Shown: positions 2,957 to 12,323 of the stretch, piece by piece
How the letters are laid out: each line of letters begins with the position of its first letter
Numbering within the stretch: position 1 is the first letter of the stretch
DNA from: Candidatus Woesearchaeota archaeon
GTDB taxonomy: Archaea; Nanobdellota; Nanobdellia; Pacearchaeales; GW2011-AR1
DNA length: 12,391 nt
Assembly (NCBI GenBank): GCA_964466855.1
Contig: CAYXOE010000011.1
Coordinates: 1-12,391 of the forward strand
Direction: 5' to 3'
Program-made: the position numbers and the translations under genes
Notes under the pieces: generated by a model
What the model was told of the DNA's origin: nothing
What the model saw: the letters and a program-made list of their open reading frames with translations, nothing else
Databases searched by the model: none

Positions 2957-3075
2957 TCTTTCTTATTTTCTGTTTATTCATAAATGATTGCTGATTACTT
3001 TATAAATATTTCTATATGTTATATATCTTTTCAATTATAGAAACATTTAAAATTTAGATTAAATTTTATTGCTTA
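2957..3075. promoter_or_regulatory. AT-rich divergent promoter region
   Basis: 119-bp spacer between divergent starts at 2956 (-) and 3076 (+). TTTAAAA at 3046-3052 lies about 27 nt upstream of ATG 3076. ttattcataaat at 2974-2985 lies about 25 nt upstream of the minus-strand ATG. There is a further TTTATAAATA at 2999-3008. Confidence 0.4.
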
Positions 3076-3336
3076 ATGAATTCAGAATTAGAAGAGGCAC
3101 AATTTATGTTTAAACTTGCAAGAAAAGGAAATTGGAACGCTAGTTATGATAGAGAAGAACATTTCAAAAGATTTCAGAATTTAAAAGGAATTATCAAGAA
3201 TCTTTCTCAAAAAAGTTGGATAATTATACATAGAAAACCAAAATTTGAGGCATATTCATTGAATACAGAGCATAAATCAAAAATCATCGAATTTATCGAG
3301 AGACAAATGCCTCATATTAAAGGAGTTATTAAATAA
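3076..3336 (+). CDS. Hypothetical small protein (possible winged-helix fold)
   Basis: 86-aa ORF with a TATA-like box at the right distance. LSQKSWIIIHRKPKFEAYSLNTEHKSKIIEFIE resembles a recognition-helix/wing/Y-x-L-T pattern. I recognise no firm family. Confidence 0.5.
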   Translation: MNSELEEAQFMFKLARKGNWNASYDREEHFKRFQNLKGIIKNLSQKSWIIIHRKPKFEAYSLNTEHKSKIIEFIERQMPHIKGVIK

Positions 3337-3365: not shown

Positions 3366-4445
3366 ATGGAAATTGAAAGAGAGTTTTTGAAAGTTGATGA
3401 GAATCCGCAGATGAGCCCGACGCGTTTCAGCGTGCTGTCTTCTTGCCATAAAAAATATTGGTTCAATTATGTTCTTCATGCTTCTTATTCTGTTCCCGTC
3501 AATGTTGCAATTGGGACTCTTATGCACAAGATAATTGAAAACATGTGGGTTAGAGAGCGAACATCAGGACATTTAATTCCGGGCTATAAAGATAAAAAAA
3601 CCTGCGAGAATATTGCAGTCGGGAATTGGAAATTTAATTTTGCAAGAACAGGAGTTGCACAAAATGGAAAACCAATAGAGTGGACAGTTTATGATGGGCA
3701 TGGCTATGCAAAAAGTTTGATTGAAAGAATAAGGCAAACCGCAGGAATTGCCTATGAAAGTGAAATGAATTGGCCTCCAATAAAAGTTGAACTTCCTATA
3801 GAAGTTGAATATAAAGGATTCAAGTTATTTTCAAGAATTGATGGATTAAAAAAAGGTTTGGACGGAAAAGGAATTGTAATAATGGATCACAAATCAGGAC
3901 CCGAGAGGATTGAGAGCCCAAATCCCGACGAAATTTCATATTTCGTGCAAAAAAACATGCAATTAACATTCAATGCCATTGTTTTATTTGAAGCATTAAA
4001 TCACAAATACACTATTATTTCTGATATTTTTCCCGAATATAACGGAATAAGATTGGATGAATATTTGCGCATATTGACAGTTGGGTTGAATGATATTTTT
4101 CCAAGAAAAGAAAATGGCATTGTAAGAACAACCAGCAAATTTTATCCCTCAAGGCGGACAAGGCACGATTTTGACGACGCTGTTGAATCAATTCAAATTG
4201 GTTTGGGCGCATTAAGAAGAAAAGAATTTGATGCAAACAAGGGAGCACAATGCAACTATTGCTTTTTCAGAAAAATTTGTGATGACTATACGCCCGCTGA
4301 TTACCATAAAAATGAACATCAAAGACAATATTCTCTTTTTGCAGGGCAGGGGATTGTGTTAGAGGATCCGAAACCAATGAAGAAAAAAGGAAGAGCTTAC
4401 CAAGGATATTTTAGAAATTGGATACAGAAAGAAGAAGGAAACTAG
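3366..4445 (+). CDS. PD-(D/E)xK nuclease, Cas4/RecB-like, with a 4-Cys (Fe-S type) cluster
   Basis: 359 aa. N-terminal Cys27 (SSCHKKYW, nt 3444-3446). GTLMHKIIE helix. Motif II SRIDGL. Motif III IVIMDHKSG (D-x-K, nt 3885-3893). C-terminal C-x2-C-x5-C, CNYCFFRKIC (nt 4251-4280). One N-terminal Cys plus C-x2-C-x5-C is the Cas4/AddB nuclease arrangement. Confidence 0.75.
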   Translation: MEIEREFLKVDENPQMSPTRFSVLSSCHKKYWFNYVLHASYSVPVNVAIGTLMHKIIENMWVRERTSGHLIPGYKDKKTCENIAVGNWKFNFARTGVAQNGKPIEWTVYDGHGYAKSLIERIRQTAGIAYESEMNWPPIKVELPIEVEYKGFKLFSRIDGLKKGLDGKGIVIMDHKSGPERIESPNPDEISYFVQKNMQLTFNAIVLFEALNHKYTIISDIFPEYNGIRLDEYLRILTVGLNDIFPRKENGIVRTTSKFYPSRRTRHDFDDAVESIQIGLGALRRKEFDANKGAQCNYCFFRKICDDYTPADYHKNEHQRQYSLFAGQGIVLEDPKPMKKKGRAYQGYFRNWIQKEEGN

Positions 4446-7882: not shown

Positions 7883-8221
7883 CTAATAATCCGGCAAATC
7901 ATCAAAATTCCCCTGTCCGGGCTTTTCAACTTTTATTTTTTCGTTGAATGTCTGCTGATGGTTATGCCCTGAATTTTCCGAGGAGGAGCCACTTGGATTC
8001 AAGTCGCTGTGTGAAATTGAGTTTATCATTTCCTTGAATTCTGCAAATCTTTCAGCAGGAATTCTCAAACCTTTTTTTGTCGGTCCTGAATATTTTTCGC
8101 TTGTCGCATATTCCCTTATGTCAACCCCGACTCTTCCATTATATTCTCTTACTGCTATTATTATGTCCGTTGCTGTTCCCTGGAATTCGCCTTTGCTTAT
8201 TTTTCCTATTTCCTTATCCAT
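7883..8221 (-). CDS. PC4/Sub1-like ssDNA-binding domain protein with acidic C-terminal tail
   Basis: 112 aa. VGVDIREYATSEKYSGPTKKGLRIPAERFAEFKEMINSI aligns by eye with the human PC4 C-terminal domain core (LIDIREYW...KPGRKGISL...W..LKEQISDI). It is followed by a Ser/Gly/Gln-rich linker and a terminal FDDLPDY. Confidence 0.7.
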   Translation of the reverse strand: MDKEIGKISKGEFQGTATDIIIAVREYNGRVGVDIREYATSEKYSGPTKKGLRIPAERFAEFKEMINSISHSDLNPSGSSSENSGHNHQQTFNEKIKVEKPGQGNFDDLPDY

Positions 8222-8257: not shown

Positions 8258-8619
8258 TATTTGTGACCAGCATCATATTGCGGATTTGGGACAGAAGCAT
8301 CAGTTCTGTTATTATACCAAATCTTTTCCTGTTCCAAAACACCCAACAAATTTTTTGCAGCCCTTAAATTTTCTTTACTTTCTTTTTCATCTTTTGATAA
8401 AGGATAAGAAACAATTACCCGCTCGCCGTTCTGGCTATATCTGTTAAGAATTTCACCGATTGCATATTTGTCATCCTGCCTTCTTGTAATTAATCCAAAA
8501 TTAGAAACGTAATATCCTCTATATTCTAGTTTTCTTTTTGCTTCTTCAAAGTTTGGATTTGGCGCGATTATCTGTTTTGTCTGTGCGAAAAACTGCTTTA
8601 AAGAGGTTAACAGATTCAT
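8257..8619 (-). CDS. Hypothetical protein, translationally coupled to the upstream beta-barrel-like gene
   Basis: 120-aa ORF with no signal peptide or TM helix. Its ATG overlaps the upstream stop (ATGA on the minus strand, 8616-8619). I recognise no family. Confidence 0.6.
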   Translation of the reverse strand: MNLLTSLKQFFAQTKQIIAPNPNFEEAKRKLEYRGYYVSNFGLITRRQDDKYAIGEILNRYSQNGERVIVSYPLSKDEKESKENLRAAKNLLGVLEQEKIWYNNRTDASVPNPQYDAGHK

Positions 8620-9281
8620 TTTAGAAATATTTTAGCGCTGGCAGCTATTGTAATACCCCCGCTATTTGATGCTGATGTAGCTGCTGCTCCATAACTTGTT
8701 GAATTTGAAGAAACTTGCGGCGTGACCCAGTTATATGTATATCTGCCTTCAATTGAAAGGGAAGTAGTATCTGACACCGGTATTTCAAATCCGCCGAAGG
8801 TGCCGACGCCAAATCCGGACGCGTTTGCGCTTGCCGTTCCAATGACTGAATTTTGATATGTATCTGTTGCTGTTTCTGTCCCGAAATCATAGGAAATTTG
8901 CCCGCCAATGTATGGGCGTATTTCATCTCTTTTCCCGAATGCTTTTGACAATCGTGCTGCAACGCTGCCTGTCCATATTTCAGAAGTCAATGATTCGCCT
9001 GAAGGCAATTGCTGTAAAAGAATCGGCTTTCCTTTTGTATCTGAGAAAATGAAGGCAAGTTCCCCGCTTACGCCGTCGTTTGATTCAAGCCCCAATCCTA
9101 ATTTTCCCTGAAACATCCACCCATAAACTTTCTGCATAACATCATTGCTTGAATAAAAACCGCCCAATTCAGAGCTAAAATATAATTGCTGTGCGTCAGC
9201 CGGCTTCGGAGATGCAAATGCCAAGACTCCTGCCAATAAAGGCAAAGCAAAAGGTTTTGCAAGTTTTTTTAGCAAACTCAT
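8616..9281 (-). CDS. Secreted protein with outer-membrane-protein-like 8-stranded beta-barrel pattern
   Basis: 221 aa. Sec-type signal peptide (MSLLKKLAKPFALPLLAGVLAFASPKPADA|QQ). The mature part has about 8 amphipathic Gly/aromatic-rich segments: LYFSSELGGFYSS, YGWMFQGKLGLGLES, GELAFIFSD, IWTGSVAARLSKAF, IRPYIGGQISYDFG, GFGVGTFGGFEIPV, SLSIEGRYTYNW, GITIAASAKIFLK. The CDS call is firm. The fold and function are inference. Confidence 0.75.
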   Translation of the reverse strand: MSLLKKLAKPFALPLLAGVLAFASPKPADAQQLYFSSELGGFYSSNDVMQKVYGWMFQGKLGLGLESNDGVSGELAFIFSDTKGKPILLQQLPSGESLTSEIWTGSVAARLSKAFGKRDEIRPYIGGQISYDFGTETATDTYQNSVIGTASANASGFGVGTFGGFEIPVSDTTSLSIEGRYTYNWVTPQVSSNSTSYGAAATSASNSGGITIAASAKIFLK

Positions 9282-9357: not shown

Positions 9358-9750
9358 TTAAGTTACTATTATCTGCCCAACCATTGACGGATGAATTGAG
9401 CAATAATAATTGTATGTTCCTGGTGTGTTAAATGTATGGGCGTAAGTCTGCCCGGGCGAAATTACCGACGATGACAATTCGTTTCCGTTATTTGAAGTTA
9501 TTGTATGGCTTGCCTGCCCATTATTTGTCCATGTCACACTTTGCCCGGCTTTTATTATCAACTGCGACGGGGTGAATGCATAATCTTTTATTGCAACATT
9601 CTGTCCCGGGATTATTTGCACTTGAGTTTTTCCTGATTGAGAAGAGCCCGGGTTTCCAGAGTTTGTATAATTTTTAGGGAGCAAAAAAATTCCCGCCACT
9701 GCAAAAATCAATGCAATCGCGATAATACCAATTAATATTATTTTTTTCAT
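9358..9750 (-). CDS. Membrane-anchored type-1 (blue) copper protein, plastocyanin/amicyanin-like cupredoxin
   Basis: 130 aa. N-terminal TM anchor (IILIGIIAIALIFAVAGIFLL). Upstream His ligand context (QASHTITS). C-terminal ligand loop YYCSIHPSMVGQIIV: Cys 9400-9402, His 9391-9393, Met 9382-9384. Confidence 0.85.
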   Translation of the reverse strand: MKKIILIGIIAIALIFAVAGIFLLPKNYTNSGNPGSSQSGKTQVQIIPGQNVAIKDYAFTPSQLIIKAGQSVTWTNNGQASHTITSNNGNELSSSVISPGQTYAHTFNTPGTYNYYCSIHPSMVGQIIVT

Positions 9751-10172
9751 TTTATTTTCAGTAGTTTAACAAATATATATGAGATACCTGTTATGAATGT
9801 GAAATGTACCAGTCCTATGAGCCAGCTTGAAGTTGAAGAACTCAAGCGTGGAAATGTAAAATAATAATAAATTCCGAAGATGATTGTCCCAAGAATTCCG
9901 ACAATTGCGGATTTCAATATCGGCTTTATTTTTGTTTTCTGCGTACATAAAAAGACGAAAAAGAATGTCAAAGCCACGATAGTTGATTTTGTAAATCCAT
10001 ACCATGTCGGTGCAAAATAATATTCATAGATAAATCCCAAGTCCTTTCTATAAAGCAATGGGTCGAGGATGAATCTATGGCCAATGAACAATTCCAAAAC
10101 GCCGGTTGCTATGCCAACAATTAAAGAGAAGAGGATTAATTTAGGAATATATTTTTTCATCTCTTTTTTCAT
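9747..10172 (-). CDS. Hypothetical 4-TM membrane protein, coupled to the cupredoxin gene
   Basis: 141 aa with four hydrophobic segments and two His near membrane boundaries (IGHRF, LVHFTF). Its stop overlaps the cupredoxin ATG (ATGA, 9747-9750). Confidence 0.65.
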   Translation of the reverse strand: MKKEMKKYIPKLILFSLIVGIATGVLELFIGHRFILDPLLYRKDLGFIYEYYFAPTWYGFTKSTIVALTFFFVFLCTQKTKIKPILKSAIVGILGTIIFGIYYYFTFPRLSSSTSSWLIGLVHFTFITGISYIFVKLLKIK

Positions 10173-10275
10173 ATTATTATTTATTTACAGGAAAGGAATT
10201 TATAAATTTTCTGGAAAATTCAAATGTTTTATAAATAAATTATCTCTCTGAAAATAAATCAATATTGGCTGAAAG

Positions 10276-10291
10276 AAGCCCAGTTCGCATA
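10276..10291 (+). repeat. Orphan exact copy of the tRNA-Ser 5' end
   Basis: AAGCCCAGTTCGCATA is identical to 10329-10344. That segment is 2 leader nt, the acceptor 5' strand, positions 8-9, the D-stem 5' strand and 1 more nt. Confidence 0.85.
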
Positions 10292-10330
10292 AGCTCAAAT
10301 CAGAAGATTTGGCAAATGCTTCTGGTCTAA

Positions 10331-10453
10331 GCCCAGTTCGCATAGTGGTAGTGCACAAGATTGGAGACCGTAGGGGCAAGCCCCTAACAGGTCACCCTAA
10401 AACCAAAAATCTTGGCCCGAAAGGGCTCGCAGGTTCGATTCCTGCACTGGGCG
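10331..10453 (+). tRNA. tRNA-Ser(GGA) with a 42-nt intron at canonical position 37/38
   Basis: Acceptor GCCCAGT/ACTGGGC. D arm GCAT-AGTGGTA-GTGC. Anticodon stem CAAGA/TCTTG. Long variable arm GCCC-GAAA-GGGC-TC (class II). T arm GCAGG-TTCGATT-CCTGC. Discriminator G, and no encoded CCA. The intron is 10367-10408. It is bounded by 3-nt bulges AGA and AAA around the 4-bp helix TTGG/CCAA. Confidence 0.85.
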
Positions 10454-10508
10454 ATAATCGAACCTTGGTTTCATTGCCGAAGGCGATGAGAGGGAACGAA
10501 GTGAACTC

Positions 10509-10527
10509 CGATTCCTGCACTGGGCGA
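10509..10527 (+). repeat. Orphan exact copy of the tRNA-Ser 3' end
   Basis: CGATTCCTGCACTGGGCGA is identical to 10436-10454 (T-loop through discriminator plus 1 nt). The 5' strand of the T stem is missing upstream of it. It ends 1 nt before the tmk stop codon. Confidence 0.85.
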
Positions 10528-10528
10528 A

Positions 10529-11218
10529 TTATTGAGAAACTCTTGATAAAACAGGTTCAAGATGATTTTCTTTTATGAATTCATCCACATACTTTCTAAT
10601 GCTAAATTGCATCCAATCCGGCTGCCCATCAATATATGGAACAACTCTAAATGTGCCTGAATTTTGTCTTGCTATTTCCCGATAACCCTGATTTACCCGC
10701 TGATGATATTCCAGTTTTCTCGCTTCAATTTTGTCTTCCTTTCCAAATTCATTTTTTCCCTTGCTTTTTTGCAAACCCAATCTTGCATCAATATCAAGCA
10801 AAAAAGTCAAATCAGGTCTTGCGCCCGCACACGAAAAATCAATTAGATTATCTATGACACCCAAATCAATCCCTAAACCATAACCCTGATATGCTTTTGT
10901 AGAATATCTCCATCTGTCTGAAATGAAAATATCTTCCTGCATCAAAGAAGGTTTTATTCTATTCTCAAAAAGTTCTATTCCGGCTGCGACATACAATAGC
11001 ATTTCTGTTCTGGGATTTAATTCAGGCAAATTCGAGTCCTGAAGAATTTTTCTTATATGCTCACCCGCAGCAGTTGTTCCCGGTTCTCTCCCGACTTCGA
11101 CAATATATCCTTTGCCTGATAAATATTCTGCAAGAAGCTTTGATTGAGTTGTTTTGCCTCCACCCTCGCCCGATTCAAAATTAATCCAAAGTCCGGGATA
11201 AGAATGTCCGCGAGCCAT
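10529..11218 (-). CDS. tmk: Thymidylate kinase (dTMP kinase)
   Basis: 229 aa. P-loop FESGEGGGKTTQ. SDRWRYSTKAYQGYG matches the DR(Y/W)..S..AYQG motif. Lid-region basic residues are present. The start is 1 nt downstream of the thyA stop, so the two are likely one operon. Confidence 0.9.
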   Translation of the reverse strand: MARGHSYPGLWINFESGEGGGKTTQSKLLAEYLSGKGYIVEVGREPGTTAAGEHIRKILQDSNLPELNPRTEMLLYVAAGIELFENRIKPSLMQEDIFISDRWRYSTKAYQGYGLGIDLGVIDNLIDFSCAGARPDLTFLLDIDARLGLQKSKGKNEFGKEDKIEARKLEYHQRVNQGYREIARQNSGTFRVVPYIDGQPDWMQFSIRKYVDEFIKENHLEPVLSRVSQ

Positions 11219-11219
11219 T

Positions 11220-12323
11220 TTATGCAGCCATTACTGCTTTAGAATCCCATTTTTCTGGGTCATATCCGATGAGTTTCGCATAATCCATTGCAGGCATTTC
11301 AATTGCATCCAATAAAGGAACGCCCCCCAGAATTTCAAGTGTTGGAGGCTCTCTTGGAATTTTTGATAACTGCTCCAATATGAATGGAACGTGGTCTTTT
11401 CTTTCATTGCCCTCGCTTTCAGAGGGTGCATTTTTTAGATACCAATTTTTCAAACCCAAATATCCTGAACGATGACCAACCGCATTAAATCTTGCCTGGA
11501 ATTCCTCAACATTTTTTTCATCCATCCAGAAATCAGAACGAGGCGGAACGCCGAGATAGGCATGAACATTATTGTAATGGTGGTAGAAAAATCGAGGGGC
11601 AAAACCAGTTTCATTTGCGACCATATGGGTTAGCAAAGAATCTTGCGATATATTTGATGGAACGCCGAGGAAAACATCACAGCTTCTTTGAGTCATTGTT
11701 AAATCCACAGAGCCATTTTTATAAGTTGTAAATTGATGAAGCACGGGGCAAGGGCCGATTGCCATCACTTTTGAACCTGAAGCTATTCCTGGTAAATTTG
11801 CAACATTCCATGAAGAAAGAACATGATATCTTGAGCCGGGTCTTTCTCTCATATTTTTTAATACATATTTTAATTGGTCTATTTCCCCGCCTTCTCCGTC
11901 GGGCCAATGTCTCCATTGATAGCCATAAACAGGACCCAAATCACCATTGCCAACCATTTCTGGTTCTGTTTGTAATATTGTTTTATAATCTTCAAATCTC
12001 ATATTCCATGCATTTGAGTGTTTGGGGACTTTTCCTGTTTGTCCAATCTCTCTCAAATATCTGTCAAAGGCATTCGCTGTCCAGAAATTAATATTCTCGT
12101 TAATTAAAGAGATAACACTTCGCTCCCCCCTTAATTTCCAAAATAATTCCCCGAAAGGAAGGCGAGGCGGAAGATTTTTTGTTGTTACTTCTGGAAATCC
12201 TTTTCTTAAATCATAGACACTTCGCCAGGATGAAAGCCCTAAAGTATATTCCTGAGTTCGCGGCTCATATTGTACGTCGCCTCTTCCCAAAACTTCTTTT
12301 AGCAGAACATGATATTGTTCCAT
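11220..12323 (-). CDS. thyA: ThyA-family thymidylate synthase with extra insertions
   Basis: 367 aa. DLGPVYGYQWRHW, GSRYHVLSSWN, catalytic Cys in IGPCPVLHQF (Cys192, nt 11748-11750), TQRSCDVFLGVPSNIS with Asn retained (dUMP-type), and NNVHAY. It is about 100 aa longer than E. coli ThyA. Confidence 0.9.
   Translation of the reverse strand: MEQYHVLLKEVLGRGDVQYEPRTQEYTLGLSSWRSVYDLRKGFPEVTTKNLPPRLPFGELFWKLRGERSVISLINENINFWTANAFDRYLREIGQTGKVPKHSNAWNMRFEDYKTILQTEPEMVGNGDLGPVYGYQWRHWPDGEGGEIDQLKYVLKNMRERPGSRYHVLSSWNVANLPGIASGSKVMAIGPCPVLHQFTTYKNGSVDLTMTQRSCDVFLGVPSNISQDSLLTHMVANETGFAPRFFYHHYNNVHAYLGVPPRSDFWMDEKNVEEFQARFNAVGHRSGYLGLKNWYLKNAPSESEGNERKDHVPFILEQLSKIPREPPTLEILGGVPLLDAIEMPAMDYAKLIGYDPEKWDSKAVMAA

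What the first reader, a model, noticed from the sequence alone, without database searches (positions are those of the whole stretch)
10276..10527. Intron-bearing tRNA-Ser(GGA) bracketed by exact copies of its own 5' and 3' termini
The cloverleaf at 10331-10453 is complete, but 49 nt separate the anticodon-stem strands. TTGG (10361-10364) pairs with CCAA (10403-10406), giving a 4-bp helix. That helix is flanked by 3-nt bulges AGA (10365-10367) and AAA (10407-10409). This is bulge-helix-bulge geometry and places a 42-nt intron at 37/38. The intron has an internal GGGGC-AA-GCCCC hairpin. I cannot see a helix beyond the 5' bulge, so it would be a relaxed BHB. A 16-nt exact copy of the tRNA 5' end lies 53 nt upstream (10276-10291). 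A 19-nt exact copy of its 3' end lies 73 nt downstream (10509-10527), ending 1 nt before the tmk stop codon. The two orphan pieces are mutually complementary (GCCCAGT/ACTGGGC), so they could form an outer acceptor-like stem enclosing the whole gene. The upstream spacer contains an imperfect palindrome (CAGAAGATTTG-G-CAAATGCTTCTG). Possible explanations are att-site scars from integrase recombination at this tRNA, a decayed nested or split tRNA arrangement of the kind known in small archaeal genomes, or a leader-trailer processing stem.
Basis: seen in the sequence. Interest (0 to 1): 0.65.

Follow-up and report, generated by a model that had tools for sequence, protein, structure and literature searches.

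The report
Intron-bearing tRNA-Ser gene with duplicated ends
A working, intron-containing serine tRNA gene of a tiny (Pacearchaeota-like) archaeon sits between short exact copies of its own two ends; these are most likely scars of a sloppy DNA rearrangement at a locus that rearranges often in this lineage, not parts of a new RNA-processing device.

Summary
Rfam's tRNA model hits 10331-10453 (45 bits). It is a class II tRNA-Ser(GGA) with a 42-nt intron (10367-10408) at 37/38 in a relaxed bulge-helix-bulge. Eleven intronless orthologues align across the junction and three loci carry a homologous intron. The 16-nt and 19-nt flanking copies are exact and not chance. The 5' arrangement recurs without mismatch in two other assemblies.

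In 18 related loci this tRNA lies next to tmk, and none has the bracket. One relative (L181) has a clean tRNA whose 3' end abuts the tmk stop, where the window's outer 3' copy lies. The promoter upstream of the outer 5' copy is homologous to relatives' tRNA promoters. So the outer pieces mark the ancestral gene ends.

The spacers look like patchwork: a 40-nt palindrome resembling a tmk coding piece, an inverted copy of the gene's own T arm, and an intron-like piece. I found no integrase, no in-register BHB and no conservation.

Best reading: duplication-plus-filler scars from template switching or break repair, transcribed as leader and trailer and trimmed off. Relatives show similar debris, intron gain/loss, an inverted gene and a LAGLIDADG endonuclease insertion. 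Interest is moderate.

The parts
10227..10239 (+). Archaeal TATA-like box (TTTTATAAATAAA), the only promoter-like element upstream of the tRNA. It lies upstream of the OUTER 5' copy.
   Evidence: Read from the sequence. The 37-nt stretch around it aligns without gaps to the tRNA-Ser promoter/leader of L001 (p=0.007) and L165 (p=0.02), in the same orientation relative to the tRNA. Nothing TATA-like lies in 10292-10330.
10276..10291 (+). F5: outer exact copy of positions -2 to 14 of the tRNA (AAGCCCAGTTCGCATA). I read it as the original 5' end of the ancestral gene, now part of the 5' leader.
   Evidence: exact; none expected by chance. Its position relative to the homologous promoter is shown. 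It is present in two other assemblies.
10292..10328 (+). S1: 37-nt filler forming, with 4 nt of F5', a ~40-nt imperfect palindrome (arms 10293-10311 and 10313-10332, centre G10312). The left arm resembles tmk codons QAQIRR(F/Y) of other lineages.
   Evidence: Inverted repeat I2. 10291-10311 matches L161 tmk at 19/21, 74 nt before its stop (blastn-short E 0.007). The same tmk site is hit in L087, L002 and L165, but not in the window's own tmk. A dinucleotide-shuffle test gives P=0.05 for a hit of this score anywhere, so this is suggestive only. TAAGC occurs at both junctions.
10331..10366 (+). tRNA-Ser(GGA) exon 1 (positions 1-37), anticodon GGA at 10363-10365.
   Evidence: Rfam RF00005, 45 bits. 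Alignment with orthologues.
10367..10408 (+). 42-nt intron at the canonical 37/38 position with an internal GGGG-CAAG-CCCC hairpin. It is homologous to the 56-nt and 53-nt introns of L001/L089 and L082/L166.
   Evidence: BHB scan: H=4 bp (10361-10364 with 10403-10406), bulges 10365-10367 and 10407-10409, outer helix 5 bp, inner helix 0.
10409..10453 (+). tRNA-Ser(GGA) exon 2 (positions 38-73): long variable arm GCCC-GAAA-GGGC, T arm GCAGG-TTCGATT-CCTGC, discriminator G. CCA is not encoded.
10455..10508 (+). S2: 54-nt filler. 10456-10465 (AATCGAACCT) is a perfect inverted copy of T-arm positions 51-60 (10431-10440). 10461-10472 matches the intron hairpin of L001/L082. 10485-10512 resembles the tRNA leader of L085/L171.
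   Evidence: Inverted repeat I3. Shuffle tests give p=0.012-0.026 for the T arm and p=0.010 for the intron hairpin. The L085 match is 22/28 with E 0.035, but P=0.26 by dinucleotide shuffle, so it is weak.
10509..10527 (+). F3': outer exact copy of tRNA positions 56-73 plus 1 nt (CGATTCCTGCACTGGGCGA). I read it as the original 3' end of the ancestral gene, abutting the tmk stop codon.
   Evidence: In L181 a clean tRNA-Ser(GGA) on the strand opposite tmk ends 1 nt from the tmk stop. In the window the F3' discriminator G10526 is 2 nt from it.
10529..11218 (-). tmk (thymidylate kinase), convergent with the tRNA. It serves as the synteny anchor.
   Evidence: Pfam PF02223, 2.1e-37. Homologues and loci.

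Best explanation
This is a functional archaeal tRNA-Ser(GGA) gene with a canonical-position (37/38) BHB intron. Its ancestral copy was remodelled by DNA-level duplication-with-filler events, either two events or one complex break repair. The outer copies, F5 (10276-10291) and F3' (10509-10527), are the original ends of the gene, still next to the original promoter and the tmk stop codon. Between them lie 37 nt of palindromic filler, a complete gene copy and 54 nt of patchwork filler. The most likely mechanism is polymerase template switching or fold-back synthesis during replication or double-strand-break repair, possibly after a break inside the gene. The scars have no function of their own. 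Transcription starts at the TATA box near 10227-10239. F5 and S1 are transcribed as a ~70-nt leader that RNase P removes at G10331. The splicing endonuclease and ligase remove 10367-10408. S2 and F3' form a trailer cut off after G10453, and CCA is then added.

Shown: the gene, the intron, the repeats, their absence in relatives, and the positional identity of the outer copies with the ancestral ends. Inferred: the mutational mechanism, and every processing step from the transcription start to CCA addition.
For: (a) The gene and intron are real.
(b) tRNA-Ser(GGA) lies next to tmk in 18 related loci, and none has the bracket.
(c) In L181 the tRNA 3' end abuts the tmk stop, where F3' lies in the window. 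The promoter upstream of F5 is homologous to the tRNA promoters of L001 and L165. No promoter-like sequence lies between F5 and the inner gene.
(d) Identity falls abruptly from 16/16 and 19/19 to background. S1 against the tRNA gives p=0.4. This fits junctions, not gradual decay.
(e) The fillers contain inverted copies of adjacent sequence. These are AATCGAACCT, 15 nt from its template, and the 40-nt S1 palindrome. They also contain pieces resembling locus components: the tmk 3' coding region, the intron hairpin and a tRNA leader. Fold-back and template-switch insertions of this size are documented mutational products (PMC11724301, PMC7954356, PMC10710096).
(f) Short microhomologies sit at the junctions: TAAGC at both ends of S1, and CGAT at the end of F3 plus T, which equals the start of F3.
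(g) The same type of lesion recurs independently at this locus. L086 has exact 42-nt direct repeats of leader (not tRNA) sequence around a 92-nt filler, which holds an intron relic and a copy of tRNA positions 5-14. L168 has a 12-nt exact copy (16/18 from C56) of its 3' end, 94 nt downstream, preceded by an inverted copy of its own T arm.
(h) The 5' arrangement is reproduced in two other assemblies.
Against: The mechanism is inferred from the end product only. The sources of most filler sequence were not found in the window. The tmk-like and leader-like matches are only marginally significant (P=0.05 and 0.26). Two duplication-with-filler lesions flanking one intact gene is an unusual outcome. 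It requires either one complex event or two independent ones filtered by selection. The junctions fall in the D loop (14/15) and T loop (55/56). L086 and L168 break at or near the same places, which hints at a site-specific process that random template switching does not predict. No RNA data exist, so a role for the leader and trailer in processing cannot be excluded. Predicted folding of the whole precursor favours pairing of the inner 5' end with the outer 3' copy, so the scars may not be entirely neutral.
Confidence: 0.55

Rival explanations
1. The repeats are att-site scars. Two tRNA-targeting integrative elements, one at the 5' terminus and one at the T loop/3' terminus, integrated and were later deleted down to 37 and 54 nt. 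This left attL/attR-type direct repeats.
For: Direct repeats of a tRNA 5' or 3' terminus flanking an insertion are the classical footprint of archaeal integrative elements (PMC3293823; PMC9897764). The 3' repeat starts in the T loop and runs just past the 3' end, a sublocation I recall from Williams 2002 (cited, not read). Relatives show 'empty' sites.
Against: No integrase, split integrase or recombinase is present in 12.4 kb. The repeats are 16 and 19 nt against about 44 bp, and the inserts 37 and 54 nt against 9-23 kb. Two independent elements would each have to be trimmed to under 60 nt while both repeats stayed perfect. The fillers resemble local sequence, not foreign DNA. No inverted core-type repeats surround the junction of the outer 3' copy. 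L086 shows the same architecture with repeats made of leader sequence, not tRNA. IMG/VR scans found no matching attP, although viruses of these archaea are poorly sampled.
Confidence: 0.15
2. A homing-endonuclease cut in the tRNA gene triggered the event, and the bracket is the product of aberrant gene conversion from an intron-bearing donor allele. This is a special case of the best explanation with a defined trigger.
For: In L087 a LAGLIDADG endonuclease ORF (PF14528, 4.9e-18) sits between a 26-nt 5' tRNA fragment of a different allele (23/26) and the complete tRNA. Intron presence and absence is polymorphic between near-identical exons: L082/L166 against L003/L179. L086 keeps an intron relic beside an intronless gene. 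S1 resembles a tmk allele that is not the window's own. That would fit a donor with the usual tmk-then-tRNA arrangement.
Against: No endonuclease gene is present in the window. F5 and F3' are identical to the inner gene, including the lineage-specific acceptor stem GCCCAGT. This argues for an intragenomic (sister-copy) template rather than a foreign donor. The cleavage site of the L087 enzyme is unknown.
Confidence: 0.12
3. The outer copies are functional. They would form an outer acceptor-like stem or alternative acceptor stems that guide or regulate pre-tRNA processing. Alternatively the gene is a nascent multi-intron or nested tRNA, whose 53-nt and 73-nt inserts at 14/15 and 55/56 can be spliced.
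For: With the inner cloverleaf enforced, F5 and F3' do pair as a 7-bp outer stem (-98.2 kcal/mol against an MFE of -101.1). The four possible acceptor pairings lie within 8 kcal/mol. One in-register BHB-like pairing exists (10449-10521: CC-UGCA-CUG-GG with its own copy). The splicing endonuclease of ARMAN-lineage ultrasmall archaea, which belong to DPANN, has broad specificity (PMC3239211 and PMC5829648, abstracts). D-loop and T-loop junctions recur in L086 and L168.
Against: The bracket is not conserved in any of 18 related loci. The complementarity is merely the duplicated acceptor stem. The BHB candidate has 2-bp flanking helices, and I estimate about a 0.2 chance of it arising at random given the duplication. 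The inner gene is complete and needs neither outer piece. No Rfam family or second tRNA is detected in the flanks, even at E up to 10.
Confidence: 0.07
4. The bracket is an assembly artefact, for example a chimeric join at a repeat.
For: The source is a metagenomic contig. The two Logan contigs end at 10343 and 10452, inside the repeated segments. The 3' side is not independently confirmed.
Against: The 5' half (promoter, F5, S1, F5' and tRNA up to 10452) is identical in two other assemblies. The repeats of 16 and 19 nt are shorter than usual assembly k-mers (my own knowledge, not a tool result), and unique spacers separate them.
Confidence: 0.03

Closest known systems
Archaeal pre-tRNAs with a canonical 37/38 bulge-helix-bulge intron (reviewed in PMC4090602)
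   Same: The insertion lies one nucleotide 3' of the anticodon. A 4-bp central helix is flanked by two 3-nt bulges, and the anticodon stem forms the outer helix. Splicing would restore a normal cloverleaf. Intronless orthologues exist.
   Different: The inner helix next to the 5' bulge is missing, so the motif is relaxed. In the relatives' introns (L001, L082) the central helix has a mismatch (ACAA instead of CCAA), read from the sequences.
tRNA-gene fragments left by integrative elements: attL/attR direct repeats, as in SSV1, pNOB8-type plasmids, PYG1 and the Caldiarchaeum tRNA-Thr locus (PMC3293823, PMC9897764)
   Same: Exact direct copies of a tRNA 5' or 3' terminus lie beside a complete gene, in the same orientation. 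Relatives show the uninterrupted site. In Caldiarchaeum, as here, the events are linked with intron gain.
   Different: Both termini are duplicated at once, nested around a single gene. The repeats are 16-19 nt instead of about 44 bp. The inserts are 37 and 54 nt instead of kilobases. There is no recombinase, and the fillers are palindromic or locally derived.
Short-range template-switch and fold-back templated insertions (PMC11724301, PMC7954356, PMC10710096)
   Same: Short inverted copies of neighbouring sequence create hairpins. There are duplications at the junctions, microhomology of a few nucleotides, and sizes of tens of nucleotides.
   Different: Those systems were described in yeast, apes and cancer genomes. 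I did not find this documented for archaeal tRNA genes in my searches. The responsible polymerase or repair pathway in DPANN archaea is unknown.
Split, tri-split and permuted archaeal tRNA genes (PMC3218864 and references therein)
   Same: Pieces of a tRNA gene ending in loops lie apart from the rest. They occur in small or fast-evolving archaeal genomes and are thought to arise through mobile elements.
   Different: Here a complete gene is present. The pieces are redundant copies, not the only copies. No leader-trailer BHB joins them.

Membership tests
tRNA (class II, Ser, anticodon GGA) | Match to the tRNA covariance model over its full length, above the curated threshold | tested here: met
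   RF00005: 45 bits against a gathering score of 29, model positions 1-71, window 10331-10453.
tRNA (class II, Ser, anticodon GGA) | Long variable arm, anticodon GGA, discriminator G73, and orthology with tRNA-Ser(GGA) of relatives | tested here: met
   Variable arm GCCC-GAAA-GGGC, GGA at 10363-10365, G10453. The gene aligns end to end with 15 orthologues found next to tmk.
Archaeal BHB intron at the canonical position | Insertion between positions 37 and 38, defined against intronless orthologues | tested here: met
   The alignment gap spans 10367-10408. 11 intronless and 2 further intron-bearing orthologue sequences were aligned.
Archaeal BHB intron at the canonical position | 4-bp helix flanked by two 3-nt bulges, with helices on both outer sides (strict hBHBh') | tested here: inconclusive
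   H is 4/4, both bulges are present and the outer helix is 5 bp, but the inner helix is 0 bp. This fits the relaxed form only. Cleavage was not tested.
Integrative-element att scars at tRNA genes | Direct repeat of a tRNA terminus flanking an insertion that is absent from relatives | tested here: met
Integrative-element att scars at tRNA genes | Integrase gene (intact or split) or element genes between or beside the repeats | tested here: not met
   The inserts are 37 and 54 nt. No integrase or recombinase family was found in any window ORF by Pfam or PHROGs.
Integrative-element att scars at tRNA genes | A matching attP on a virus or plasmid | tested here: not met
   Exact scans of IMG/VR for F5, F3 and the S1 and S2 cores gave 0 hits for F3, S1 and S2. 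F5 gave three hits without tRNA-like context. This is a weak test because sampling is limited.
Split / nested / multi-intron tRNA | The mature tRNA can be made only by joining separated pieces | tested here: not met
   The inner gene is complete and folds as a cloverleaf.
Split / nested / multi-intron tRNA | A BHB motif in register with the exon junctions of the extra inserts | tested here: not met
   The sliding scan over all 20 and 17 registers found only 10449-10521 with 2+4+2 bp, which I estimate has about a 0.2 chance of arising at random.
Leader-trailer processing stem | Extended leader-trailer complementarity that is conserved in relatives | tested here: not met
   Only the 7-bp duplicated acceptor stem is complementary. 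The feature is absent from all related loci.
Template-switch / fold-back duplication scars | Short duplications bordering filler that contains inverted or direct copies of nearby sequence | tested here: met
   I3 is a perfect 10-nt inverted copy 15 nt from its template, and I2 is the S1 palindrome.
Template-switch / fold-back duplication scars | All filler is traceable to templates, with microhomology at every junction | tested here: inconclusive
   Only parts of S1 and S2 could be traced, and some only marginally. TAAGC and CGAT microhomologies were seen at three of the four junctions.

The most novel reading that the evidence does not exclude
The tmk-adjacent tRNA-Ser(GGA) gene of these Pacearchaeota-like archaea may be the target of a specific, still unidentified process that repeatedly breaks it in the D loop (14/15) and T loop (55/56). 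The agent could be a homing endonuclease or a tRNA-gene-directed recombination system. If so, the window would capture a natural intermediate on the path to disrupted tRNA genes. Both exon termini are duplicated around spacers, so loss of an inner copy would create a non-canonical intron or a split gene. On this reading, the intron gain and loss, the gene inversion in two non-sister loci (window and L181) and the LAGLIDADG insertion in L087 are all facets of the same process.
Probability: 0.12. Interest if true: 0.65.

Novelty: new variant of a known kind. Interest (0 to 1): 0.38.

Why it matters
The ways in which archaeal tRNA genes acquire introns, break into pieces or get reshuffled are still argued largely from end products and a few population snapshots (PMC3293823, PMC3218864). 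This locus adds a compact and well-delimited case. One essential tRNA gene has both ends duplicated within 250 nt, and a comparative series places it in context: clean, intron-bearing, intronless, inverted, endonuclease-invaded and debris-bearing versions. It suggests that local replication or repair errors, not only integrases, can produce tRNA terminal fragments. If the scars are merely neutral, the practical lessons are for annotation. Intron-bearing DPANN tRNAs are missed by bacterial-mode tools, and terminal fragments should not be read automatically as att sites.

Tried and rejected
- ARAGORN (bacterial mode) found no tRNA. This is uninformative for an intron-bearing archaeal gene.
- I tested whether S1 is a decayed anticodon arm or 5' half of a second tRNA copy. 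Local alignment to the own or related tRNAs gave p=0.4-0.7, so I rejected it.
- I suspected that L085/L171 and L003 carry a 'pseudo 5' end' upstream of their tRNAs (AGCCCTGATTCGGC and AGCCCAGATTCGGCC). These are not significant (p=0.5-0.6) and I dropped them as evidence.
- The shared ...GAACGAAGTGA motif (window S2, L085 leader, similar in L168 and L003) is positionally suggestive. It is not significant by shuffle (P=0.26) and I treat it as a lead only. My reading of it as a C/D-box or k-turn element did not fit the consensus spacing when inspected by eye.
- A BHB scan for splicing of the 53-nt and 73-nt inserts gave nothing convincing.
- A low-threshold Rfam scan of 10180-10600 showed no second tRNA and no other credible family.
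- A search for template sources of S1 and S2 inside the window, and of the L168 spacer inside L168, found only the T-arm inverted copies.
- Exact-protein look-ups for the window's Tmk and ThyA, meant to find other assemblies of the 3' side, found nothing on record.
- IMG/VR scans for attP-like copies were negative.
- An NJ tree of Tmk was used to ask whether the two inverted loci are sisters. They are not, but the tree is short-branched and weak.
Full report
**What is there**

The window is archaeal and AT-rich, with 27-42% GC in 500-nt windows. It encodes aIF2-gamma, aIF5B, a PC4-like protein, thymidylate synthase ThyA and thymidylate kinase Tmk. The closest named Tmk homologue is from a Candidatus Pacearchaeota MAG.

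Rfam's tRNA model matches 10331-10453 on the + strand at 45 bits against a gathering score of 29. It covers the whole model, with a 45-nt insert in the anticodon loop and a long variable arm. ARAGORN in its bacterial mode misses the gene.

Reading the sequence gives the following:
- The anticodon is GGA (10363-10365).
- The discriminator is G10453, and CCA is not encoded.
- The anticodon-stem strands are 49 nt apart.
- This is therefore a class II tRNA-Ser(GGA) with a 42-nt intron, 10367-10408, between positions 37 and 38.

**The intron**

I collected the orthologous gene from 15 related loci, where it lies next to tmk, and aligned them. Eleven sequences are intronless and close the gap exactly at 37/38. 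L001/L089 and L082/L166 carry homologous introns of 56 and 53 nt at the same place.

TTGG (10361-10364) pairs with CCAA (10403-10406), and the 3-nt bulges lie at 10365-10367 and 10407-10409. The anticodon stem forms a 5-bp outer helix, and there is no inner helix beside the 5' bulge. The motif is therefore relaxed.

Exons that are nearly identical occur with the intron (L082/L166) and without it (L003, L179). Intron gain or loss is therefore recent in this group.

**The terminal copies**

AAGCCCAGTTCGCATA occurs at 10276-10291 and at 10329-10344. CGATTCCTGCACTGGGCGA occurs at 10436-10454 and at 10509-10527. Both pairs are exact, and no shuffle of the window gave two matches.

- The 16-mer (outer copy F5, inner copy F5') is two flanking bases plus tRNA positions 1-14.
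- The 19-mer (inner copy F3, outer copy F3') is positions 56-73 plus one flanking base.
- The junctions therefore fall at the start of the D loop (14/15) and inside the T loop (55/56).

Two Logan assemblies from other runs carry the neighbouring ORF (9747-10172). They reproduce window 10143-10343 and 10143-10452 without a mismatch. The promoter-F5-spacer-tRNA arrangement is therefore not an artefact of one assembly. I could not confirm the 3' side independently.

**What the relatives say**

In 15 related loci with a detectable tRNA, it follows tmk on the same strand, with a TATA box right after the tmk stop. L083's tRNA is below the Rfam thresholds and was read by eye. L084 and L163 show no tRNA in the 451 and 281 nt available after tmk.

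In the window the tRNA is on the opposite strand. The flanking genes keep their relative order and orientation: the PC4-like ORF 7883-8221 has co-directional homologues downstream in L003 and L085. Only the promoter-plus-tRNA unit is inverted.

One relative, L181, has the same inverted arrangement in a clean form. It carries an intronless tRNA-Ser(GGA) whose 3' end lies 1 nt from the tmk stop and a TATA box about 33 nt upstream. In the window the outer 3' copy occupies that position, with its discriminator 2 nt from the stop.

The stretch upstream of the outer 5' copy aligns without gaps over 37 nt to the tRNA promoters of L001 (p=0.007) and L165 (p=0.02). Nothing promoter-like lies between the outer 5' copy and the inner gene.

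The outer pieces are thus the ends of the ancestral gene, and 10292-10508 lies 'inside' that frame. None of the 18 related loci carries the bracket.

**The spacers**

S1 (10292-10328):
- With the first four bases of F5', S1 forms a ~40-nt imperfect palindrome. Its arms are 10293-10311 and 10313-10332.
- The left arm, 10291-10311, matches the tmk coding sequence of L161 at 19/21 (E 0.007). The match lies at the conserved QAQIRR motif, about 75 nt before the stop.
- It hits the same tmk site in L087, L002 and L165, but not in the window's own tmk.
- A dinucleotide-shuffle control gives P=0.05 for the score alone, so I treat this as suggestive.
- The homology stops exactly at the palindrome centre, as expected if the right arm is a fold-back copy of the left.

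S2 (10455-10508):
- After one base it begins with AATCGAACCT. This is a perfect inverted copy of T-arm positions 51-60, which lie 15 nt upstream (p=0.012-0.026).
- It overlaps a 12-nt match to the intron hairpin of L001/L082 (p=0.010).
- It ends in a stretch resembling the tRNA leader of L085/L171 (22/28). That match is not significant by shuffle.
- S1 shows no significant similarity to the tRNA itself (p=0.4).

Identity therefore drops abruptly from 100% to background at all four junctions. That is the signature of junctions rather than of a slowly decaying second gene copy. Short microhomologies are present: TAAGC at both ends of S1, and CGAT formed at the end of F3 plus T, which is also the start of F3.

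**Tests of the three proposed explanations**

- att scars. The geometry resembles the classical footprint (PMC3293823; PMC9897764). The scale does not. The repeats are 16 and 19 nt rather than about 44 bp, and the inserts are 37 and 54 nt rather than 9-23 kb. No integrase or recombinase is encoded in the window. No attP-like copy exists in IMG/VR.
- Nested or split tRNA. The inner gene is complete. A scan of every register in which the 53-nt or 73-nt insert could be spliced found only one weak BHB-like pairing. This is 10449-10521 with 2+4+2 bp, formed by the repeat pairing with its own copy, which I estimate has about a 0.2 chance of arising at random.
- Leader-trailer stem. The only complementarity is the duplicated 7-bp acceptor stem.
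- Folding of the precursor 10262-10535 does show the outer stem forming when the inner cloverleaf is enforced (-98.2 kcal/mol). The minimum-energy fold (-101.1) instead pairs the inner 5' end with the outer 3' copy and traps the T arm with its inverted copy. This suggests possible interference with folding, not a designed stem.
- A permissive Rfam scan finds nothing else in the region.

**A locus that rearranges repeatedly**

- L086 has exact 42-nt direct repeats of leader sequence around a 92-nt filler. The filler contains an intron-derived piece (p<0.002) and a copy of tRNA positions 5-14, although its tRNA is now intronless.
- L168 has a 12-nt exact copy (16/18 from C56) of its tRNA 3' end, 94 nt downstream. 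The copy is preceded by an 11-nt inverted copy of its own T arm. This is the same layout as the window's 3' side, in a different tRNA sequence.
- L087 has a LAGLIDADG endonuclease gene (PF14528, 4.9e-18) between a 26-nt 5' fragment of another allele and the complete tRNA.
- The inverted orientation occurs in the window and in L181. By Tmk distance and tRNA sequence these group with different co-directional relatives, L001 and L082/L083 respectively. The tree is weak.

**Most likely mechanism**

The simplest account is duplication with templated filler, produced by template switching or fold-back synthesis during replication or break repair.

One possibility is a single event. A break inside the gene would be resected to about positions 14 and 56. 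Repair from a sister copy would then proceed with several template switches. This would leave the old ends (F5 and F3') outside a newly copied complete gene.

Two separate events are also possible. Selection on the tRNA, which I presume to be the only tRNA-Ser(GGA) gene, keeps only outcomes with an intact copy.

Fold-back and short-range template-switch insertions of tens of nucleotides are documented elsewhere (PMC11724301, PMC7954356, PMC10710096). The duplicates would then be transcribed from the single upstream promoter. RNase P would remove them as leader, and 3' processing would remove them as trailer. These processing steps are inferred from general knowledge of archaeal tRNA maturation and were not tested.

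One observation does not fit a purely random process: the junctions recur in the D and T loops in the window, L086 and L168. Either hairpin-prone, highly conserved segments favour switching, or a site-specific agent such as an endonuclease is involved.

**Verdict**

- The three functional or evolutionary readings of the bracket are not supported, although the att-scar idea is the nearest known analogue.
- The feature is a new variant of a known kind, tRNA terminal fragments beside a complete gene. It differs in its miniature size, its symmetry and the absence of a recombinase.
- Interest is moderate. It matters mainly as a comparative series for how archaeal tRNA genes are disrupted and repaired.

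Noticed in passing
window 10215-10527 compared with L001-L003, L081-L083, L085-L087, L089, L161, L165, L166, L168 and L171-L180; L181 3566-3647: The promoter-plus-tRNA-Ser unit is inverted relative to tmk in the window and in L181 only. In both, the tRNA 3' end lies 1-2 nt from the tmk stop. By Tmk distance and tRNA sequence the two loci are not each other's closest relatives. This suggests either two independent inversions with almost the same breakpoint or exchange of the arrangement between lineages.
   Followed up: partly
L087 2200-2225 (5' tRNA fragment), 2267-2947 (ORF), 3032-3112 (tRNA): A free-standing LAGLIDADG homing-endonuclease gene (PF14528, 4.9e-18) sits between a 26-nt 5' fragment of a different tRNA-Ser allele (23/26) and the complete tRNA-Ser(GGA).
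   Followed up: partly
L086 1400-1441 and 1534-1575 (repeats), 1442-1533 (filler), 1580-1660 (tRNA): Exact 42-nt direct repeats of leader sequence flank a 92-nt filler. The filler holds a relic of the 37/38 intron and a copy of tRNA positions 5-14, while the adjacent tRNA is intronless.
   Followed up: partly
L168 3721-3803 (tRNA), 3825-3835, 3898-3909: A relative with a quite different tRNA-Ser sequence has the same 3' layout as the window. An inverted copy of its own T arm lies in the trailer, followed by a direct copy of its 3' end (12 nt exact, 16/18 from C56) 94 nt downstream.
   Followed up: partly
L082/L166 compared with L003 and L179 (tRNA-Ser genes): Nearly identical exons occur with a 53-nt intron (L082, L166) and without it (L003, L179). 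The 37/38 intron is therefore gained or lost on a short time scale in this group.
   Followed up: partly
window 11220-12323 (-); L162, L165, L166, L171 and L181 upstream of tmk: The gene next to tmk is ThyA (PF00303) in the window, L163 and L168. It is the unrelated flavin-dependent ThyX (Thy1, PF02511) in L162, L165, L166, L171-L177, L179 and L181. This is a non-orthologous replacement within one syntenic block.
   Followed up: no
window 8616-9281 (-): A 221-aa ORF on this archaeal contig matches the bacterial outer-membrane beta-barrel family OMP_b-brl (PF13505, 6e-08, above the curated cut-off). It is conserved in the Logan contig L182. This is an odd family for a DPANN-like archaeon.
   Followed up: no
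L182 (ends at window 10343) and L183 (ends at window 10452): Both independent Logan contigs stop inside the repeated segments, at the end of F5' and near the end of F3. This could be chance, low coverage or strain heterogeneity at the junctions.
   Followed up: no
L181 2874-3564: The tmk of L181 appears frameshifted. Residues 1-42 are in a different frame from the called 187-aa product. This is either a sequencing error or a pseudogene.
   Followed up: no
window 10485-10503; L085 3734-3753; L168 3878-3897; L003 ~3790-3814: A motif ...G(A)ACGAAGTG(A)... lies just upstream of a tRNA 5' end (L085/L171, and a variant in L003) or of a 3'-end copy (window, L168). It is positionally striking but not statistically significant.
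   Followed up: partly
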